Positions 1-11,018 of a stretch of 11,018 nucleotides of DNA are shown here, piece after piece. Made by a program: the position numbers and the translations under genes. Every line of letters starts with the position of its first letter. Position 1 is the stretch's first letter. Source of the DNA: Escherichia phage vB_EcoM-473R3; sequence record ON470611. One strand, given 5' to 3'. Below the pieces are notes generated by a model, which saw only the letters and a program-made list of their open reading frames with translations, was not told where the DNA came from and did no database searches.

Positions 1-687
1 ATGAGGCTTATTGCACATTATCTCAATTTTGGATATTCAGACAAAAAATTAAAAAGACTTGACCGCGAGTGGCGCGACATTCAACTATTTAAAATAATTA
101 ACGGAATCAATGTATCAGGCATTGAAAATGTGAGAATGATACAGCAGGGACTGATTGATGGAAAACTAAAAACATCGTATTTTTTCCTTACTCGCATCTG
201 GGGTGACATAACAAAACCACCACACGTAATTAAAACAATAATTGTAATTCTGGCCAGTATTTTTTACATTCTCCTCGCATGTTACATACACAACGAACAA
301 TCCGTTATAGTAAGGGATGCCATAGGCATACCATATAAAAACATGATGTACTATGTTTATAGTGACAAAGTTCTTTTATCCTTCAAAAATAAAGCAGTTG
401 AATTTAATAAAACTTATAGCCTTGCCGATTGCAAGAGACTGCAAAACGTATTTATAAAAGACACACTTCCTGAGATCGCCTGCAATAAGCTCTTACAGTT
501 AAACGAGGAGGACTCCGAATGGTTAAGCCAGGAGATTAAAGACAATAACAGTCACAAAAAAGCATTATTAATACTATCCCTCGTCTATTTCACTTCAGGT
601 CTGGTTATATTCCTGTCATATACAAAATTCTTTTACGCCAATAAGAAGGTTTTAGAATACAAAGCATCAAATAAAAATCACTCATAA
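1..687 (+). CDS. Hypothetical AT-rich membrane protein (228 aa, two predicted transmembrane helices); accessory/moron gene in the S-V slot of the P2-like late region
   Basis: ATG at position 1, TAA at 685-687, frame open throughout. G+C is about 30% by eye, against well over 50% in the adjacent phage genes. Two hydrophobic stretches (IIVILASIFYILLACYI, about residues 79-95; ALLILSLVYFTSGLVIFLSY, about 187-206). Convergent with gpS. No family recognised from memory. Upstream promoter lies outside the window. Confidence 0.6.
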   Translation: MRLIAHYLNFGYSDKKLKRLDREWRDIQLFKIINGINVSGIENVRMIQQGLIDGKLKTSYFFLTRIWGDITKPPHVIKTIIVILASIFYILLACYIHNEQSVIVRDAIGIPYKNMMYYVYSDKVLLSFKNKAVEFNKTYSLADCKRLQNVFIKDTLPEIACNKLLQLNEEDSEWLSQEIKDNNSHKKALLILSLVYFTSGLVIFLSYTKFFYANKKVLEYKASNKNHS

Positions 688-693
688 ACCTCT

Positions 694-728
694 AAACATT
701 GAGCGACCAGCATGGCCGCTCAATGTTT
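694..728. terminator. Putative bidirectional intrinsic terminator hairpin between the convergent 1..687 ORF and gene S
   Basis: Perfect 12-bp inverted repeat AAACATTGAGCG (694-705) / CGCTCAATGTTT (717-728), with two further pairs (707-708 with 714-715) closing a 5-nt loop. It lies in the 71-nt gap between two convergent stop codons (687 and 759). The flanking U-tracts are weak. Confidence 0.4.
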
Positions 729-758
729 AATTGCGCATCAGCCTCTGCCTGGATAAAA

Positions 759-1211
759 CTAACGCTCAAGGTGAGCCAGGATAATCTCTTCAATCATCTG
801 CACATCCTCACCGGTAAAGCCAAGCAGAGGACGCGCCGGATAATCAATTTTCTTACCGTCTTTCCGGGTTTCTTCCGACAGACCGAACTGATGCACACTG
901 GCGATTTTCGGTGACTTTCCGCCGTAAAACTCCATTGATGCCTGTTCCGGGCTGGCGCGGATATGCAAAAAACGACTGGTGATAAGTTTCGCAAACATTT
1001 TTCGCTTAACACGACCGGTCTTTTTTCTGGCGCTCTGCTGCTGGCGTGGTGCGTAGGGTGTGCCGTCCGGGGCTTTCTGTGCCATCACCCGGCGCTGCTG
1101 ACTCTGCCGCAGATGTTTCGCCAGTTCTGCACTCAGTCGCCGACGCCCAGACGGTGACAGCGATTCAATCAGTCCGGTCAGCCGGTCTTCAAAACGCTTA
1201 AACTCATTCAT
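759..1211 (-). CDS. S: Tail completion protein gpS (150 aa)
   Basis: ATG at 1209-1211 (minus), TAG at 759-761. Length and N-terminus MNEFKRFEDRL match my recollection of P2 gpS. Overlaps the R stop by 8 nt. Confidence 0.88.
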   Translation of the reverse strand: MNEFKRFEDRLTGLIESLSPSGRRRLSAELAKHLRQSQQRRVMAQKAPDGTPYAPRQQQSARKKTGRVKRKMFAKLITSRFLHIRASPEQASMEFYGGKSPKIASVHQFGLSEETRKDGKKIDYPARPLLGFTGEDVQMIEEIILAHLER

Positions 1212-1671
1212 CCCACTTGCTCACCAGTTCACCATTGATATAAAGCTCCATCGGGCGATTGACTGGCTCCGGCGGCGGAGGTTCCGGGATATTCTTCACA
1301 TGCAGCGCACCGTCAACCTCACTGACCAGCGTTCGCTCGGTCAGCATCAGGCTGATGCTGATATCAAAGCTGCTGTCATTGTTGATGTCTGCATAAAACG
1401 TGAAACCTTTTTTCTGACCTTCGTCGGTGGTCATGATGTCGGGCTGATTTTCCCGCAGCCACGCCAGCACCGGCACGATGAGCAGGTCAAAATCACCGGT
1501 AAAGTCGGTCACAATGACATTGAGCGTGTAACGCTTTTCGAATGACAGCGACGTCGCCAGCGTGGAGGCAATACTCCCGTTATCCACGAATATCCGCAGC
1601 ATCTCTGGACTGGTTTTCAGCACCGTGACGGCATCAGTCAGCGCCCTGCGCAGGCTGTCGGGTTTGAGCAT
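1204..1671 (-). CDS. R: Tail completion protein gpR (155 aa)
   Basis: ATG at 1669-1671 (minus), TGA at 1204-1206. N-terminus MLKPDSLRRALTDAV and 155-aa length match recalled P2 gpR. Confidence 0.88.
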   Translation of the reverse strand: MLKPDSLRRALTDAVTVLKTSPEMLRIFVDNGSIASTLATSLSFEKRYTLNVIVTDFTGDFDLLIVPVLAWLRENQPDIMTTDEGQKKGFTFYADINNDSSFDISISLMLTERTLVSEVDGALHVKNIPEPPPPEPVNRPMELYINGELVSKWDE

Positions 1672-1924
1672 CGTTTTCGTCCTGACAGTGTTTAATCATT
1701 TTTACCTGGCTGGCACAACGTGCCAGCGCGTTCTCAAGCTGCCGGATATCGGCACTTAAATCGCCGTTCGTCTCCGGGTCACTGCCCGGCATCGGGCAAA
1801 GGCTCACTTTCGGGCAGGCGTTGGCGACAATCACTGGCGTCGGTGCAGGCGGGGCGCTGGTGCAACCGGCGCACAGCATCAGGCAGGTCAGCACCATACC
1901 AGCGGCGAAAATCTTCGTTTTCAT
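1634..1924 (-). CDS. lysC: o-spanin LysC (Rz1-like outer-membrane lipoprotein, 96 aa); the copy on the contig left of gap 1
   Basis: ATG at 1922-1924 (minus) preceded by a GAGG Shine-Dalgarno. Signal peptide plus lipobox MKTKIFAAGTVLTCLMLCAGC. Lies in the +1 frame relative to lysB and runs 38 nt into R, as in P2. 96 codons, matching P2 LysC. Confidence 0.72.
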   Translation of the reverse strand: MKTKIFAAGMVLTCLMLCAGCTSAPPAPTPVIVANACPKVSLCPMPGSDPETNGDLSADIRQLENALARCASQVKMIKHCQDENDAQTRQPAQGAD

Positions 1925-1986
1925 TAAGTAACCTCGTGATGGTTTTCTCGCGCTGTGCTTCACGCTTCGCGGCGTTCTCCAGTTCC
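1779..1986 (-). CDS. lysB: lysB 3' fragment (i-spanin C-terminal part), duplicate copy truncated by scaffold gap 1
   Basis: Region 1719-1986 is about 96% identical to 1998-2265. The TGA at 1779-1781 corresponds to the lysB stop at 2058-2060 (offset 279). The frame is cut by the N run at 1987. Confidence 0.45.
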
Positions 1987-1996
1987 NNNNNNNNNN
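1987..1996. other. Scaffold gap 1 (N10)
   Basis: Run of 10 N. Confidence 0.95.
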
Positions 1997-2203
1997 GCGT
2001 GCCAGCGCGTTCTCAAGCAGCCGGATATCGGCACTTAAATCGCCGTTCTTCTGCGGGTCACTGCCCGGCATCGGGCAAAGACTCACTTTCGGGCAGGCGT
2101 TGTGGACAATCACTGGCGTCTGCGCAGGCCGGGCGCTGGTGCAACCGGCGCACAGCATCAGGCAGGTCAGCACCGTACCAGCGGCGAAAATCTTCGTTTT
2201 CAT
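1997..2203 (-). CDS. lysC: lysC 5' portion (o-spanin), second copy, truncated at gap 1
   Basis: ATG at 2201-2203 (minus) with a GAGG Shine-Dalgarno. Same signal peptide and lipobox (MKTKIFAAGMVLTCLMLCAGC). The reading frame runs into the N run at 1996. Confidence 0.5.
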
Positions 2204-2483
2204 TGAGTAACCTCGTGATGGTTTTCTCGCGCTGTGCTTCACGCTTCGCGGCGTTCTCCAGTTCCTGACGCAGTGCCACCTGCGCCAGCTCGTTTTTGTC
2301 TGCCCTGGTGATGGCAACATGAAGCTGATTTTTCAGCATGGTGATGGTCGTCTGCTGTTCACTGGCGACGTTATTCGCCCTGTCCAGCGAGGCGCGCAGG
2401 CTGGCATTTTTGTGTTTCACCAGAAACAGACCGGTCACCGCCAGCGATAACAACACGACCAGCACAATCATCAGCTTTGACAT
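2058..2483 (-). CDS. lysB: i-spanin LysB (Rz-like, 141 aa)
   Basis: ATG at 2481-2483 (minus), TGA at 2058-2060. N-terminal transmembrane helix MSKLMIVLVVLLSLAVTGLFLV followed by a charged, coiled-coil-like region. Contains lysC in an alternative frame. Length matches P2 LysB. Confidence 0.85.
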   Translation of the reverse strand: MSKLMIVLVVLLSLAVTGLFLVKHKNASLRASLDRANNVASEQQTTITMLKNQLHVAITRADKNELAQVALRQELENAAKREAQREKTITRLLNENEDFRRWYGADLPDAVRRLHQRPACADASDCPQRLPESESLPDAGQ

Positions 2484-9229: not shown

Positions 9230-9805
9230 CCGTTTGCCGCAAATCCGTTCGGCTCCCGACCGGTATGGATTGGTTACGACCCGTCACACCGTGGCGACAG
9301 CGCCGGATGCGTGGTACTGGCACCGCCGGTGGTGGCCGGTGGCAAATTCAGAATACTTGAGCGTCACCAGTGGAAAGGTATGGACTTTGCCACCCAGGCG
9401 GAATCCATCCGCAAACTCACCGAAAAATATAACGTCGAATACATCGGTATTGATGCCACCGGCCTCGGTGTCGGCGTGTTCCAGCTCGTGCGCTCGTTCT
9501 ATCCCGCCGCGCGCGATATCCGCTACACGCCGGAAATGAAAACCGCAATGGTGCTCAAGGCAAAAGACGTTATCCGTCGTGGCTGTCTGGAATATGACGT
9601 CAGCGCCACCGACATCACCAGCTCGTTTATGGCTATCCGCAAGACCATGACCAGCAGCGGACGCAGTGCCACCTATGAAGCCAGCCGCAGCGAGGAAGCC
9701 AGCCACGCCGACCTCGCCTGGGCGACCATGCACGCCCTGTTAAATGAGCCACTCACCGCCGGTATCAGCACCCCGCTGACATCCACCATTCTGGAGTTTT
9801 ACTGA
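9230..9805 (+). CDS. P: Terminase large subunit gpP, 3' portion (second copy overlaps 8605-9012; unique C-terminus 9638-9805)
   Basis: In frame from 9230 (PFAANPFGSRPVWIGYDPSHRGDSAGCVVLAPP...) to TGA at 9803-9805. The stop overlaps the Q start (TGATG). Confidence 0.85.
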   Translation, partial: PFAANPFGSRPVWIGYDPSHRGDSAGCVVLAPPVVAGGKFRILERHQWKGMDFATQAESIRKLTEKYNVEYIGIDATGLGVGVFQLVRSFYPAARDIRYTPEMKTAMVLKAKDVIRRGCLEYDVSATDITSSFMAIRKTMTSSGRSATYEASRSEEASHADLAWATMHALLNEPLTAGISTPLTSTILEFY

Positions 9806-10104
9806 TGAGCAAGAAAAAAGGGAAAACACCGCAACCTGCGGCAAAAACAATGACCGCCAGCGCCCCGAAAATGGAGGCATTCACCTTTGGTGAGCCGGTG
9901 CCGGTACTCGACCGCCGTGACATTCTGGATTACGTCGAGTGCATCAGTAACGGCAGATGGTATGAGCCGCCGGTCAGCTTTACCGGTCTGGCGAAAAGCC
10001 TGCGTGCTGCCGTGCATCACAGCTCGCCGATTTACGTCAAACGCAATATTCTGGCCTCGACATTTATCCCGCATCCGTGGCTTTCCCAGCAGGATTTCAG
10101 CCGC
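9805..10104 (+). CDS. Q: Portal protein gpQ, N-terminal portion (100 codons), interrupted by scaffold gap 4
   Basis: ATG at 9805-9807, overlapping the P stop (MSKKKGKTPQPAAKTMTASAPKMEAF). The frame runs into the N run at 10105. Confidence 0.85.
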
Positions 10105-10283
10105 NNNNNNNNNNTGAGTGCATCAGTAACGGCAGATGGTATGAGCCACCGGTCAGCTTTACCGGTCTGGCAAAAAGCCTGCGTGCTGCCGTGCATCACA
10201 GCTCACCGATTTACGTCAAACGTAATATTCTGGCCTCGACATTTATCCCGCATCCGTGGCTTTCCCAGCAGGATTTCAGCCGC
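9937..10283. repeat. Assembly-type direct duplication inside gene Q: 9937-10104 versus 10116-10283 (168 bp, 4 mismatches, all synonymous)
   Basis: Direct alignment of the gap flanks (offset 179). Confidence 0.85.
10105..10114. other. Scaffold gap 4 (N10)
   Basis: Run of 10 N. Confidence 0.95.
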
Positions 10284-11018
10284 TTTGTGCTGGATTTTCT
10301 GGTGTTCGGTAATGCGTTTCTGGAAAAGCGTTACAGCACCACCGGTAAGGTCATCAGACTGGAAACCTCACCGGCAAAATATACCCGCCGTGGCGTGGAG
10401 GAGGATGTTTACTGGTGGGTGCCGTCCTTCAACGAGCCGACAGCCTTCACGCCCGGCTCCGTGTTTCACCTGCTGGAGCCGGATATTAATCAGGAGCTGT
10501 ACGGCCTGCCGGAATATCTCAGCGCCCTTAACTCTGCCTGGCTGAATGAGTCGGCCACGCTGTTCCGCCGCAAGTATTACGAAAATGGCGCACATGCCGG
10601 ATACATCATGTACGTCACCGATGCCGTGCAGGATCGCAACGATATCGAAATGCTTCGCGAAAACATGGTTAAGTCGAAAGGCCGCAATAACTTTAAAAAT
10701 CTGTTTCTCTATGCCCCGCAGGGGAAAGCCGACGGCATTAAAATTATCCCGCTCAGTGAAGTGGCGACGAAGGACGATTTTTTTAATATCAAAAAAGCCA
10801 GCGCCGCAGACCTGCTGGACGCGCACCGCATCCCCTTTCAGTTGATGGGCGGCAAGCCGGAGAACGTCGGGTCGCTGGGTGATATTGAGAAAGTGGCAAA
10901 GGTCTTTGTCCGCAATGAGCTTATCCCGCTACAGGACAGGATCCGCGAGATAAACGGCTGGCTCGGTCAGGAGGTCATCCGCTTTAAAAACTACTCACTG
11001 GACACTGACAACGACTGA
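10116..11018 (+). CDS. Q: Portal protein gpQ, C-terminal portion (300 aa), ending at the window edge
   Basis: In frame from 10116 (ECISNGRWYEPPVSF...) to TGA at 11016-11018. Non-redundant N-terminal 44 aa plus these 300 aa gives 344 aa, the P2 gpQ length. Confidence 0.9.
   Translation, partial: ECISNGRWYEPPVSFTGLAKSLRAAVHHSSPIYVKRNILASTFIPHPWLSQQDFSRFVLDFLVFGNAFLEKRYSTTGKVIRLETSPAKYTRRGVEEDVYWWVPSFNEPTAFTPGSVFHLLEPDINQELYGLPEYLSALNSAWLNESATLFRRKYYENGAHAGYIMYVTDAVQDRNDIEMLRENMVKSKGRNNFKNLFLYAPQGKADGIKIIPLSEVATKDDFFNIKKASAADLLDAHRIPFQLMGGKPENVGSLGDIEKVAKVFVRNELIPLQDRIREINGWLGQEVIRFKNYSLDTDND

What the first reader, a model, noticed from the sequence alone, without database searches (positions are those of the whole stretch)
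1..758. AT-rich two-transmembrane cargo gene in the S-V slot, transcribed against the late operon
The 228-aa ORF at 1..687 is sharply different in composition (about 30% G+C by eye) from the adjacent, densely packed late genes. It lies immediately beyond the last gene of the O-to-S operon, is convergent with S, and is separated from it by a strong hairpin. The product has an N-terminal soluble region of about 75 residues and two hydrophobic helices; I recognise no family. In P2-like phages the S-V junction (orf30 in P2) is a known site of variable, horizontally acquired genes, and other P2 accessory genes (old, tin, Z/fun) are exclusion or defence functions. That makes this a candidate membrane-acting superinfection-exclusion or abortive-infection gene. 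The window starts at its ATG, so its promoter and any upstream partner genes are not visible.
Basis: partly seen in the sequence, partly recalled or inferred. Interest (0 to 1): 0.62.

Follow-up and report, generated by a model that had tools for sequence, protein, structure and literature searches.

The report
Phage P2 orf30, truncated membrane-protein gene
The AT-rich gene at the left edge of the window is the already catalogued, non-essential orf30 of phage P2, cut short by the window. It encodes a three-helix inner-membrane protein of unknown function that sits in a genuine cargo slot of P2-like prophages, so a phage-exclusion role is plausible but untested.

Summary
Window 1..687 is real coding sequence, but it is only codons 34-261 of phage P2 orf30. 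It is 97.6% identical in DNA to P2 and 100% identical to E. coli prophages. The annotated gene is 261 aa and starts 99 nt left of the window behind an AAGGAG ribosome site. This adds a third, N-terminal membrane helix.

The low G+C (0.34 against 0.56), the convergence with S and the strong hairpin (693-729) are confirmed.

Orf30 has no direct Pfam, PADLOC or structural match. A deep profile search shows it founds a family of 250-270 aa proteins with three transmembrane helices, which grades into Pfam DUF6216. Members only 20-25% identical to Orf30 sit in the same S-V slot, in the same orientation and always at 30-38% G+C, in P2-like prophages of Serratia, Yersinia, Enterobacter and others.

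The slot is a true hotspot:
- 24 of 63 species-level loci are empty.
- 39 of 63 carry AT-rich cargo, including restriction-modification, GmrSD, toxin-antitoxin and other defence-type genes.

In complete E. coli genomes, 464 carry orf30 and 1024 have an empty slot.

orf30 evolves fast (dN/dS about 0.47, against about 0.1 or less for its neighbours) but stays intact. A 2026 preprint reports that a DUF6216 gene in the BL21 P2-like prophage, which I located in the S-V slot, is bound and silenced by H-NS.

The function is unknown. Envelope-level phage exclusion is my best guess, at about 0.4.

The parts
1..687 (+). 3' part of phage P2 orf30: codons 34-261 plus the TAA stop. The first 33 codons, the ribosome site and the promoter region lie left of the window.
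   Evidence: ORF and translation. 97.6% nt identity to P2 and 100% to E. coli prophages. Annotated 786-nt CDS P2p15 'Orf30; nonessential', and PGAP CDS WP_021523179. PHROG 2407, E 1.8e-148.
1..225 (+). Predicted cytoplasmic helical loop domain (residues 34-108). It carries the family's most conserved motif, D-x-Q-L-F-[KR]-x-x-N-G-[IV]-N-V ... D-A ... G-x-L ... [FW]-G-x-[IV]-[GT].
   Evidence: Family alignment A3. Net positive charge of this loop in all members, K+R 11-17 against D+E 6-11. AF2 helices 47-67, 74-86 and 91-94.
226..282 (+). Transmembrane helix 2 (residues 109-127)
   Evidence: Hydropathy peak 2.58. AF2 helix 109-134.
283..561 (+). Predicted periplasmic alpha/beta domain (residues 128-220): four beta strands plus helices. 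It contains the conserved cysteine pair C177 (nt 430-432) and C194 (nt 481-483).
   Evidence: AF2 strands 141-173 and helices 174-180 and 189-198. C194 is invariant and C177 is at least 90% conserved. Exactly two Cys occur in this loop in nearly all aligned members that have three hydropathy-predicted segments; one allele has four. The loop charge is near neutral.
562..618 (+). Transmembrane helix 3 (residues 221-239)
   Evidence: Hydropathy peak 2.25. AF2 helix 202-260.
619..687 (+). Short basic cytoplasmic tail (residues 240-261; conserved N247 and K254) and the stop codon
693..729 (.). Strong inverted repeat between the convergent orf30 and S genes. It is a putative bidirectional terminator that insulates orf30 from late O-operon transcription.
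   Evidence: Fold energies and z-scores. Annotated in P2 as the putative terminator of the O operon. Not flagged by the consensus terminator scan because it lacks a T-run.
759..1211 (-). Gene S (tail completion / virion morphogenesis), the last gene of the late O operon and the right-hand boundary of the cargo slot. Homology with empty-slot prophages resumes exactly at its stop codon (759-761).

Best explanation
SHOWN: The feature is the phage P2 accessory gene orf30, truncated by the window edge.

SHOWN or PREDICTED from sequence: The full product (261 aa) is an inner-membrane protein with three transmembrane helices. Its predicted topology is N-terminus out and C-terminus in. It has an ~80-residue conserved helical loop in the cytoplasm and an ~90-residue alpha/beta domain in the periplasm. 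That domain carries a conserved cysteine pair, which probably forms a disulphide.

SHOWN: The gene is an AT-rich 'moron'-type cassette. It fills the variable slot between the tail-completion gene S and the baseplate-spike gene V. It is transcribed against the late operon and is walled off from it by a hairpin.

SHOWN: It founds a fast-evolving family, distantly linked to Pfam DUF6216, that recurs in exactly this slot across P2-like prophages of Enterobacterales.

INFERRED mechanism: Orf30 is made from the prophage when H-NS silencing is relieved, or at a low level otherwise. It sits in the inner membrane and acts as an envelope-level exclusion factor. Its periplasmic domain would interfere with the membrane-penetration or DNA-delivery step of incoming foreign phages, as P22 SieA and HK97 gp15 do. 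The conserved cytoplasmic loop would anchor it or couple it to a host membrane partner.

The 0.4 confidence applies to the inferred mechanism. Confidence in the identity and architecture is above 0.95.
For: Identity:
- 97.6% nt identity to P2, and 98-99% amino-acid identity to P2 Orf30 over the full gene in the identical E. coli prophage.

Architecture:
- Three hydropathy peaks.
- A positive-inside charge pattern repeated in about 25 divergent relatives.
- Two cysteines confined to loop 2.
- AF2 model with pLDDT 78.

Accessory cassette:
- G+C 0.34 against 0.56.
- Present in 464 and absent (empty junction) in 1024 of 5426 complete E. coli genomes.
- Homology to empty-slot prophages breaks exactly at V's ATG and at S's stop codon.

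Family tied to the slot:
- Relatives at 20-25% identity lie between V and S in the same orientation in Serratia, Yersinia-type and other prophages. Their V, J and R proteins are 57-83% identical to those of this prophage.

Guilt by location:
- Other cargo in the same slot includes type II restriction-modification, GmrSD, RelA_SpoT/PDC-S33, PDC-S06, AriA-like ATPases, a caspase, DUF4062 and Gp49/HTH toxin-antitoxin pairs.
- P2 hotspots are established reservoirs of anti-phage genes (PMC9122126, PMC13586616).

Selection:
- dN/dS is about 0.45-0.5, against 0.02-0.13 for S, R, V and W.
- The ORF is covered at 80% or more in 460 of 464 genomes and is intact in all seven alleles translated.
- The gene is retained in decayed prophages.

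Regulation:
- The DUF6216 gene of the BL21 P2-like prophage is reported to be H-NS-bound and derepressed in the hns/stpA mutant culture, alongside the retron defence genes (bioRxiv 10.64898/2026.09.05.749240). I located that gene in the S-V slot.

Analogy:
- P22 sieA is also AT-rich (0.337 against 0.50), has 3 TM, is in the inner membrane, is convergent with the last late-operon gene, and exists as sequence types less than 30% identical.
- HK97 gp15 is an inner-membrane moron inside the tail operon that blocks DNA entry (PMC3594210).
Against: - There is no experimental phenotype for orf30 in any paper found.
- There is no match to any PADLOC model, for Orf30 or for 27 relatives.
- There is no sequence homology to P22 SieA (hhalign probability 0.5%).
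- From my own knowledge, the classical interference phenotypes of P2 lysogens (against lambda, T-even phages and T5) all map to old, tin and fun(Z). P4 and heteroimmune P2-type phages are routinely grown on P2 lysogens. So Orf30 does not visibly exclude P2-tailed particles under laboratory conditions.
- No convincing sigma-70 promoter was found upstream (8/12 matches at best).
- The related BL21 gene is H-NS-silenced, so expression in a lysogen may be very low.
- The slot also carries non-defence cargo: Hcp+Tlde1, a fimbrial protein and an ion channel.
- The most conserved part of the family is the cytoplasmic loop. That is not what a simple periplasmic 'plug' would predict.
Confidence: 0.4

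Rival explanations
1. Lysogenic-conversion or competition factor unrelated to phages. Orf30 would be an envelope protein that benefits the host, for example through immunity to a membrane- or periplasm-acting toxin (pore-forming colicin, CDI or T6SS effector), envelope-stress tolerance or a colonisation trait.
For: - The S-V slot also carries inter-bacterial competition and surface cargo: Hcp plus a Tlde1 T6SS effector domain, a fimbrial protein and 8xMP membrane proteins.
- It is a small multi-pass inner-membrane protein with a periplasmic domain and no conserved catalytic residues, a format shared with many immunity proteins.
- It is retained in prophage remnants.
- One relative gave a weak hit to colicin K immunity (E 0.11). 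This is not significant.
Against: - No cognate toxin gene is adjacent in any slot examined. Orf30-like genes usually stand alone.
- There is no significant similarity to any immunity family.
- A family tied to one phage slot is more easily explained by a phage-related function.
Confidence: 0.2
2. Abortive-infection or toxic membrane effector. Orf30 would sense infection and collapse membrane integrity or potential, like RexB-type or other single-gene transmembrane defence effectors. This would kill or arrest the cell rather than block entry.
For: - It is an AT-rich gene, and its BL21 relative is H-NS-silenced together with a toxic retron system, consistent with a product that is harmful if over-expressed.
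- Three long helices could oligomerise.
- It sits in a defence-rich slot.
- A conserved cytoplasmic domain could serve as a sensor.
Against: - The TM helices carry no conserved polar or charged residues, and TM sequences are the most variable parts.
- There is no partner or antitoxin gene.
- It matches no known Abi or defence model.
- Toxicity has never been reported for P2 orf30.
Confidence: 0.15
3. Accessory function in P2's own lytic cycle. Orf30 would be a late or delayed membrane protein that tunes lysis timing, prevents re-adsorption or re-injection into already infected cells, or assists release. It would be dispensable in the laboratory.
For: - The start codon lies only about 15-60 nt beyond the Ogr/late-activator half-site (ACACAAC) of the divergent PV promoter in every family member.
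- The cassette carries its own version of the PV control region, so activator binding could relieve silencing late in infection.
- It lies next to the lysis and tail gene block.
Against: - It is absent from about two thirds of E. coli P2-type prophages and from viable phages such as W-phi and L-413C (PMC2771037).
- It is retained in defective prophage remnants that can no longer grow lytically.
- It is transcribed against, and insulated from, the late operon.
- It has no similarity to holins, antiholins or spanins.
Confidence: 0.15
4. Functionless passenger: an AT-rich remnant that hitch-hikes in the slot and is kept silent by H-NS.
For: - dN/dS is high relative to neighbours (0.47), and is about 0.9 in the first 33 codons.
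- Its relative is H-NS-silenced.
- No phenotype is known.
Against: - The ORF is covered at 80% or more in 460 of 464 E. coli genomes, and all seven alleles translated are intact.
- dN/dS is well below 1, at 0.21 in the periplasmic domain.
- Architecture, motifs, the cysteine pair and the ribosome site are conserved down to 20% identity across genera.
Confidence: 0.05

Closest known systems
Phage P2 Orf30 (NP_046770, locus P2p15; PHROG 2407)
   Same: It is the same gene. DNA identity is 97.6% over window 1-1300 and amino-acid identity is 98-99%. The position between S and V, the orientation and the downstream hairpin are identical.
   Different: Only allelic differences. The window holds just codons 34-261.
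Pfam DUF6216 (PF19723), e.g. the 'DUF6216 family protein' ECD_RS04470 in the S-V slot of the E. coli BL21(DE3) P2-like prophage
   Same: - Same length class (about 250-270 aa).
- Three TM segments.
- A cysteine pair in loop 2 (D-C ... C-K-L-L).
- AT-rich (0.33).
- Same slot and orientation.
- One Orf30-family member (P0028) matches DUF6216 end to end at 28.9 bits (gathering cut-off 27.3), and 10 of 27 members match at E of 1 or less.
- hhalign aligns the BL21 protein to the C-terminal half of the Orf30 profile (E 1e-4).
   Different: - Orf30 itself gives no Pfam hit at E of 1 or less.
- The hhalign probability is only 57% and covers 105 columns.
- The conserved cytoplasmic motif of the Orf30 family is not evident in the BL21 protein.
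- DUF6216 has no known function either.
Salmonella phage P22 SieA (inner-membrane superinfection-exclusion protein)
   Same: - Prophage gene that is AT-rich relative to its neighbours (0.337 against 0.50).
- Three predicted TM segments, located in the inner membrane.
- Placed at the end of the late operon and transcribed against it.
- Exists as sequence types less than 30% identical at one locus (PMC10883804).
   Different: - No detectable homology (hhalign probability 0.5%).
- SieA is 162-164 aa and lacks Orf30's ~90-residue periplasmic and ~80-residue cytoplasmic domains.
- SieA's block of DNA injection is demonstrated; nothing is demonstrated for Orf30.
HK97 gp15 moron (inner-membrane superinfection-exclusion protein related to YebO)
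   Same: An independent AT-shifted cassette inserted among tail genes. It is absent from close relatives. Its product inserts in the inner membrane and protects the lysogen (PMC3594210).
   Different: gp15 is a small protein unrelated in sequence. Its promoter, terminator and prophage expression are documented. For orf30, only the hairpin is evident.
P2 accessory exclusion genes old, tin and Z/fun, and the P2 defence hotspots
   Same: These are non-essential, horizontally acquired, AT-rich cargo at fixed variable loci of P2-like phages (PMC3091744, PMC9122126, 10.1101/2024.10.15.618418).
   Different: - They lie at different loci: the A-Q region and the tail-fibre/sheath region.
- Their products are cytoplasmic and have demonstrated phenotypes.
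- The two hotspot papers I term-searched (PMC9122126, PMC13586616) never mention orf30, and none of the three hotspot studies read singles out the S-V junction. PMC13586616 mentions hotspots 'within the tail genes' and 'downstream of GpL'.

Membership tests
Phage P2 Orf30 / PHROG 2407 | Near-full-length high-identity match to P2 Orf30 | tested here: met
   PHROG 2407 matched at E 1.8e-148 over residues 1-261. Identity is 98.9% to P2 Orf30 for the full gene of the identical prophage. tblastn shows 98.1% identity between P0001 and P2.
Phage P2 Orf30 / PHROG 2407 | Located between S and V, divergent from V, convergent with S | tested here: met
   Within the window only the S side is visible.
Pfam DUF6216 (PF19723) | Score at or above the gathering cut-off (27.3 bits) against the Pfam model | tested here: not met
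   Orf30 gives no hit at E of 1 or less. Only relatives reach it: P0028 at 28.9 bits over the full length, and the BL21 slot protein at 44.5 bits.
Pfam DUF6216 (PF19723) | Remote (superfamily-level) homology through intermediates | tested here: inconclusive
   10 of 27 Orf30-family members hit DUF6216 at E of 1 or less. hhalign of the BL21 DUF6216 protein against the Orf30 profile gives probability 57% and E 1e-4 over the C-terminal 105 columns, including the Cys pair and TM3. Length, 3-TM layout and slot are shared.
Moron (independent accessory cassette in a phage late region; Juhala/Hendrix definition as summarised in PMC3594210) | Present in some genomes and absent at the same position in close relatives | tested here: met
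   464 E. coli genomes carry orf30 and 1024 have an empty ~70-nt S-V junction. 24 of 63 species-level loci are empty. Break-points lie at V's ATG and S's stop codon.
Moron | Base composition different from the surrounding genes | tested here: met
   0.341 against 0.564. The same holds for all relatives, at 0.30-0.38 against 0.45-0.62.
Moron | Own terminator | tested here: inconclusive
   A strong hairpin lies directly after the stop codon and is annotated as a putative terminator in P2. It has no U-tract and is not called by the scan.
Moron | Own promoter active in the repressed prophage | tested here: inconclusive
   Only matches of 8/12 or weaker to the sigma-70 consensus occur upstream of the true start, outside the window. 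No transcript data exist for P2 orf30. The BL21 relative is H-NS-repressed.
P22 SieA-type inner-membrane superinfection exclusion | Sequence homology to SieA | tested here: not met
   hhalign probability 0.5%.
P22 SieA-type inner-membrane superinfection exclusion | Integral inner-membrane protein | tested here: met
   Prediction only. Three hydropathy peaks and a positive-inside pattern are conserved across the family, and AF2 predicts long helices. No experiment has been done.
P22 SieA-type inner-membrane superinfection exclusion | Blocks DNA injection of superinfecting phage when expressed alone | not testable with these tools
   Needs plating, K+-efflux and DNA-entry assays.
Known anti-phage defence systems (PADLOC-DB 2.0) | Match to a defence-protein model | tested here: not met
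   No families for Orf30. Only three isolated chance-level hits (E 0.007 or more) among 27 relatives.

The most novel reading that the evidence does not exclude
Orf30/DUF6216 proteins are a previously unrecognised class of single-gene, inner-membrane anti-phage (exclusion or abortive) factors. They are the commonest recurrent family in an under-appreciated defence hotspot of P2-like prophages, the S-V junction. H-NS keeps them silent, and they diversify in an arms race through their periplasmic and membrane segments.
Probability: 0.3. Interest if true: 0.55.

Novelty: already known. Interest (0 to 1): 0.33.

Why it matters
orf30 is one of the last unassigned genes of the textbook phage P2. Allelic copies sit in about 8.6% of complete E. 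coli genomes.

This analysis shows four things:
- orf30 belongs to a conserved but fast-evolving three-helix membrane-protein family.
- That family recurs at one slot in P2-like prophages of many enterobacterial genera.
- The slot otherwise carries recognisable defence genes.
- At least one relative is under H-NS control.

Together these turn a vague 'hypothetical protein' into a concrete, cheaply testable candidate for a new envelope-level phage-exclusion family. They also flag the S-V junction as a cargo hotspot that recent P2 defence surveys did not single out.

As it stands, the finding itself is a re-discovery of a known gene of unknown function, so it should rank as moderate to low.

Tried and rejected
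- Direct family assignment failed. Pfam, NCBIfam and PADLOC gave nothing for Orf30, and the PDB sequence profile search gave only chance hits.
- Homology to P22 SieA was tested and rejected.
- A virion or housekeeping role was rejected. The gene is absent from most relatives and is annotated as non-essential.
- Recent acquisition as the reason for the low G+C was rejected. Relatives at 20% identity in hosts of 50-60% G+C are all 30-38% G+C, so AT-richness is a maintained property of the family.
- Translation from the window's ATG (Met34) was rejected.
- The search for a sigma-70 promoter, or for a mirror-image use of the Ogr site, gave only weak matches.
- The search for related loci with the family alignment failed because it had no conserved stretch. 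I surveyed the slot through gpV instead.
- The 2004 Mol Biol Evol paper on the orf30 region is not held in the library.
- Literature searches by accession, locus tag and PHROG number returned nothing relevant.
Full report
**1. What is in the window**

Positions 1..687 (+) are an open frame of 228 codons plus a stop. Its G+C is 0.341, against 0.564 for the rest of the window.

Gene S lies downstream on the opposite strand at 759..1211. A strong inverted repeat lies between them at 693..729. It folds at dG -22.7 kcal/mol (z -3.8) on the + strand and -29.6 (z -4.3) on the - strand. So the sequence-level observation is real.

**2. Identity**

- Window 1-1300 is 100% identical to prophages in many E. 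coli chromosomes and 97.6% identical to phage P2.
- In the P2 reference record the region is CDS P2p15, 'Orf30; nonessential' (9439-10224, complement). It is followed by the 'putative rho-independent terminator for O operon' and then by S, R and the lysis genes.
- The feature is therefore P2 orf30 itself, not a new occupant of the orf30 position.
- The literature found describes orf30 only as a 786-bp ORF of unknown function. It is absent from W-phi and L-413C and replaced by other ORFs in phiCTX, R18C and Burkholderia P2-like phages. The site is described as one of three loci of horizontally acquired genes in P2-like phages (PMC2771037, PMC6823313, PMC3091744).

**3. The window truncates the gene**

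- Both the P2 record and PGAP annotation of the identical E. coli prophage codons, starting 99 nt left of window position 1.
- That ATG is preceded by AAGGAG at the right distance. An equivalent AAGGAG/AAGGA-plus-ATG arrangement is found in distant relatives.
- The Met at window position 1 is not conserved in the family.
- The extra 33 residues form a hydrophobic helix that is present in all full-length relatives.
- The protein therefore has three transmembrane segments, at about residues 9-27, 109-127 and 221-239.

**4. Architecture**

The pattern below holds across about 25 relatives:

| Segment | Size | Charge or other feature |
|---|---|---|
| N-terminal tail | short | mostly uncharged or acidic |
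| Loop 1 | ~80 aa | K+R 11-17 against D+E 6-11 |
| Loop 2 | ~80-93 aa | near neutral; exactly two cysteines in almost every member (one allele has four) |
| C-terminal tail | short | basic |

- This gives an N-out/C-in topology, with loop 1 in the cytoplasm and loop 2 in the periplasm. There, C177 and C194 (window nt 430-432 and 481-483) could form a disulphide.
- AlphaFold2 on a 13-sequence alignment (pLDDT 78, pTM 0.56) predicts a helical loop 1 and a four-stranded sheet plus two helices for loop 2.
- Conserved positions are G68, G87, C194 and I212 (invariant) and Q61, D76, C177 and K254 (at least 90% conserved). Loop 1 carries the motif D-x-Q-L-F-[KR]-x-x-N-G-[IV]-N-V.
- Nothing resembles a catalytic constellation.

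**5. Family**

- A word-indexed search of 5.8 billion proteins found only five 90%-identity clusters.
- A full HMMER profile scan of 1.84 billion cluster representatives found 44 hits. About 25 are full-length proteins of 250-270 aa at roughly 20% identity.
- Orf30 itself hits nothing in Pfam, NCBIfam or PADLOC. It hits only PHROG 2407, of unknown function.
- Ten of 27 relatives touch Pfam DUF6216. One of them (P0028) matches it end to end just above the gathering score.
- The annotated 'DUF6216 family protein' of E. coli BL21(DE3) lies between S and V of the P2-like prophage remnant, in the same orientation. It has three TM segments, a Cys pair in loop 2 and 33% G+C.
- hhalign links the BL21 protein to the C-terminal half of the Orf30 profile only modestly (probability 57%, E 1e-4).
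- I therefore treat Orf30 as a sister family of DUF6216, probably in the same superfamily, and not as a demonstrated member.

**6. The family is tied to the slot**

Genomic look-ups gave these contexts:

| Relative | Context |
|---|---|
| P0050, P0052 (Serratia) | between V and S, same orientation |
| P0056 (Serratia rubidaea remnant) | between V and an S fragment, same orientation |
| P0026 (three assemblies of unnamed organisms; intergenic region matches the Yersinia frederiksenii locus L027) | between V and S, same orientation |
| P0028 | between V and S, same orientation |
| P0021 | beside V in a remnant, same orientation; a second family gene follows in tandem |
| P0037 | next to a portal gene |
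| P0016, P0017 | short metagenomic contigs without P2 genes |
| P0005 | at a contig end |

- Against the window's prophage, these elements have V 68-83%, J 68-79%, R 57-77% and S 43-49% identical proteins. Their Orf30-like proteins are only 23-26% identical.
- All family genes have 30-38% G+C whatever their host or flanks. The low G+C is therefore a maintained family trait, not a mark of recent arrival.

**7. The slot is a real hotspot**

I fetched 80 species-level loci through gpV and located S within 3.5 kb in 63 of them.

- 24 have an empty spacer of about 71 nt.
- 39 hold 0.8-3 kb of AT-rich cargo.
- Orf30-family genes are the most recurrent occupant. They occur in 7 of 80 loci; no Pfam family was found in more than two of the other cargo proteins.
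- Other cargo includes type II restriction-modification, GmrSD, RelA_SpoT/PDC-S33, PDC-S06, AriA-like ATPases, a caspase, DUF4062 and Gp49/HTH pairs. It also includes Hcp+Tlde1, a fimbrial protein, 8xMP membrane proteins and an ion channel.

Among 5426 complete E. coli genomes:

| Slot state | Genomes |
|---|---|
| orf30 | 464 |
| BL21-type DUF6216 gene | 111 |
| Empty junction | 1024 |

- Comparison of an occupied and an empty prophage shows that homology breaks exactly at V's ATG and at S's stop codon. The cassette therefore brings its own version of the PV/Ogr control region, and exchange presumably occurs by recombination in the flanking genes.
- The two defence-hotspot papers I term-searched (PMC9122126, PMC13586616) never mention orf30. 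None of the three hotspot studies read (those two plus 10.1101/2024.10.15.618418) singles out the S-V junction. The 2026 NAR paper mentions minor hotspots 'within the tail genes' and 'downstream of GpL'.

**8. Selection and regulation**

- Seven E. coli/P2 alleles (88-100% nt identity) all keep the 786-nt frame.
- Pairwise dN/dS is about 0.45-0.5 for the more divergent alleles, with a median of 0.47 over all pairs. In the same prophages S, R, V and W give 0.02-0.13.
- The periplasmic domain is the most constrained (0.21). The first 33 codons are the least constrained (about 0.9).
- Orf30-like genes persist in prophage remnants: Serratia rubidaea, BL21, an O145 strain with a frameshifted V, and a remnant with two tandem copies.
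[quoted passage not shown] It also reports their up-regulation in the hns/stpA mutant culture (10.64898/2026.09.05.749240). It did not test that gene's function.
- I found no convincing sigma-70 promoter upstream of orf30 or its relatives.
- The start codon always lies 15-60 nt beyond the conserved ACACAAC half-site of the divergent late promoter.

**9. How it most likely works**

- Shown: it is a non-essential, mobile, AT-rich cassette. It encodes a conserved but fast-evolving three-helix membrane protein, in a slot that elsewhere carries defence genes.
- Inferred: Orf30 is an envelope-level exclusion factor acting at the inner membrane or periplasm against incoming phages.
- The closest functional analogues are P22 SieA and HK97 gp15. 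SieA has 3 TM, sits in the inner membrane, is AT-rich, is convergent with the end of the late operon, and exists as sequence types less than 30% identical. HK97 gp15 is an inner-membrane moron within the tail genes.
- Orf30 is not a homologue of SieA.
- Against the idea: there is no phenotype in the literature and no defence-model match. The known P2 interference phenotypes map to old, tin and fun, and P4 and P2-type phages grow on P2 lysogens (my own knowledge). The relative is H-NS-silenced, and the slot also holds non-defence cargo.
- I put about 0.4 on exclusion. The rest is split between a non-phage envelope or competition function (0.2), an abortive or toxic effector (0.15), a lytic-cycle accessory role (0.15) and no function (0.05).

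**10. Verdict**

The ORF, its composition, the convergence with S and the hairpin are right. The start, the length and the number of helices are wrong because the window cuts the gene.
Cargo in a variable slot is correct, but a defence role is plausible and untested.
- The object is an already known gene of unknown function.
- What is added here is the family, its tie to the S-V slot, the quantified hotspot, the selection pattern and the H-NS link. Together these make a decisive experiment simple to design.

Noticed in passing
L105:7001-7771 and L105:7900-8658: A decayed P2-like prophage (J fragment, W, V) carries two Orf30-family genes in tandem. Their HMM E-values are 5e-78 and 1e-86 and their G+C is 0.30 and 0.33, against 0.60 for V. 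This suggests duplication or stacking of alleles in the slot.
   Followed up: partly
L002:3819-3901 against L013:3432-3500 (left of window position 1): Homology between orf30-carrying and empty-slot prophages breaks exactly at V's start codon and at S's stop codon. The classical P2 PV promoter/Ogr-site region is therefore part of the AT-rich cassette and differs completely from the PV region of empty-slot phages. Only an ACACAAC half-site is shared.
   Followed up: partly
L013:3440-3490; L004:7886-7920; L010:5882-5925: Empty-slot prophages and the Serratia/Yersinia-type cassettes have a GC-rich hairpin (GGATGCCGCC...GGCGGC) directly upstream of V's ATG. The P2-type cassette lacks it and instead has its hairpin next to S. 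In the Serratia/Yersinia-type loci the orf30-like gene overlaps or abuts S convergently, with no hairpin between them.
   Followed up: no
L093:45114-45920 (E. coli BL21(DE3), ECD_RS04470): The BL21 P2-like prophage remnant keeps a 'DUF6216 family protein' between S and V. A 2026 preprint reports H-NS binding on a gene it calls DUF6216 in this prophage, and de-repression of that gene. The same gene is found in 111 complete E. coli genomes, two of them on plasmids.
   Followed up: partly
S-V slots of L013-L092 (for example L014:2276-3373): Cargo in the slot in other species includes a RelA_SpoT/PDC-S33 protein, type II restriction-modification, GmrSD, a caspase, DUF4062 and Gp49/HTH pairs. It also includes Hcp with a Tlde1 T6SS-effector domain, a fimbrial protein, an ion channel and two 'octameric membrane protein' (8xMP) genes, provisionally the two 221-aa four-TM ORFs in L016 and L020, which lie in the same orientation as orf30.
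   Followed up: partly
L098:684-1318 (E. coli O145 RM12522-C8) and L005:7272-9021 (Serratia rubidaea): In prophages that are visibly decaying, the orf30-type gene remains intact. In one, V is frameshifted. In the other, only ogr, V, the orf30-like gene and an S fragment are left.
   Followed up: no
L001:2818 (P2 record position 10308): The P2 RefSeq record places the 'transcription start site for V operon' on the first base of the V coding sequence. This would make V mRNA leaderless, or else the annotation is approximate.
   Followed up: no
window 1634-2320 (-): A 228-codon ORF overlaps the end of R, lysC and lysB in another frame. It contains the annotated Rz1-like lysC frame extended upstream, and is probably just the embedded spanin frame rather than a separate gene.
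   Followed up: no
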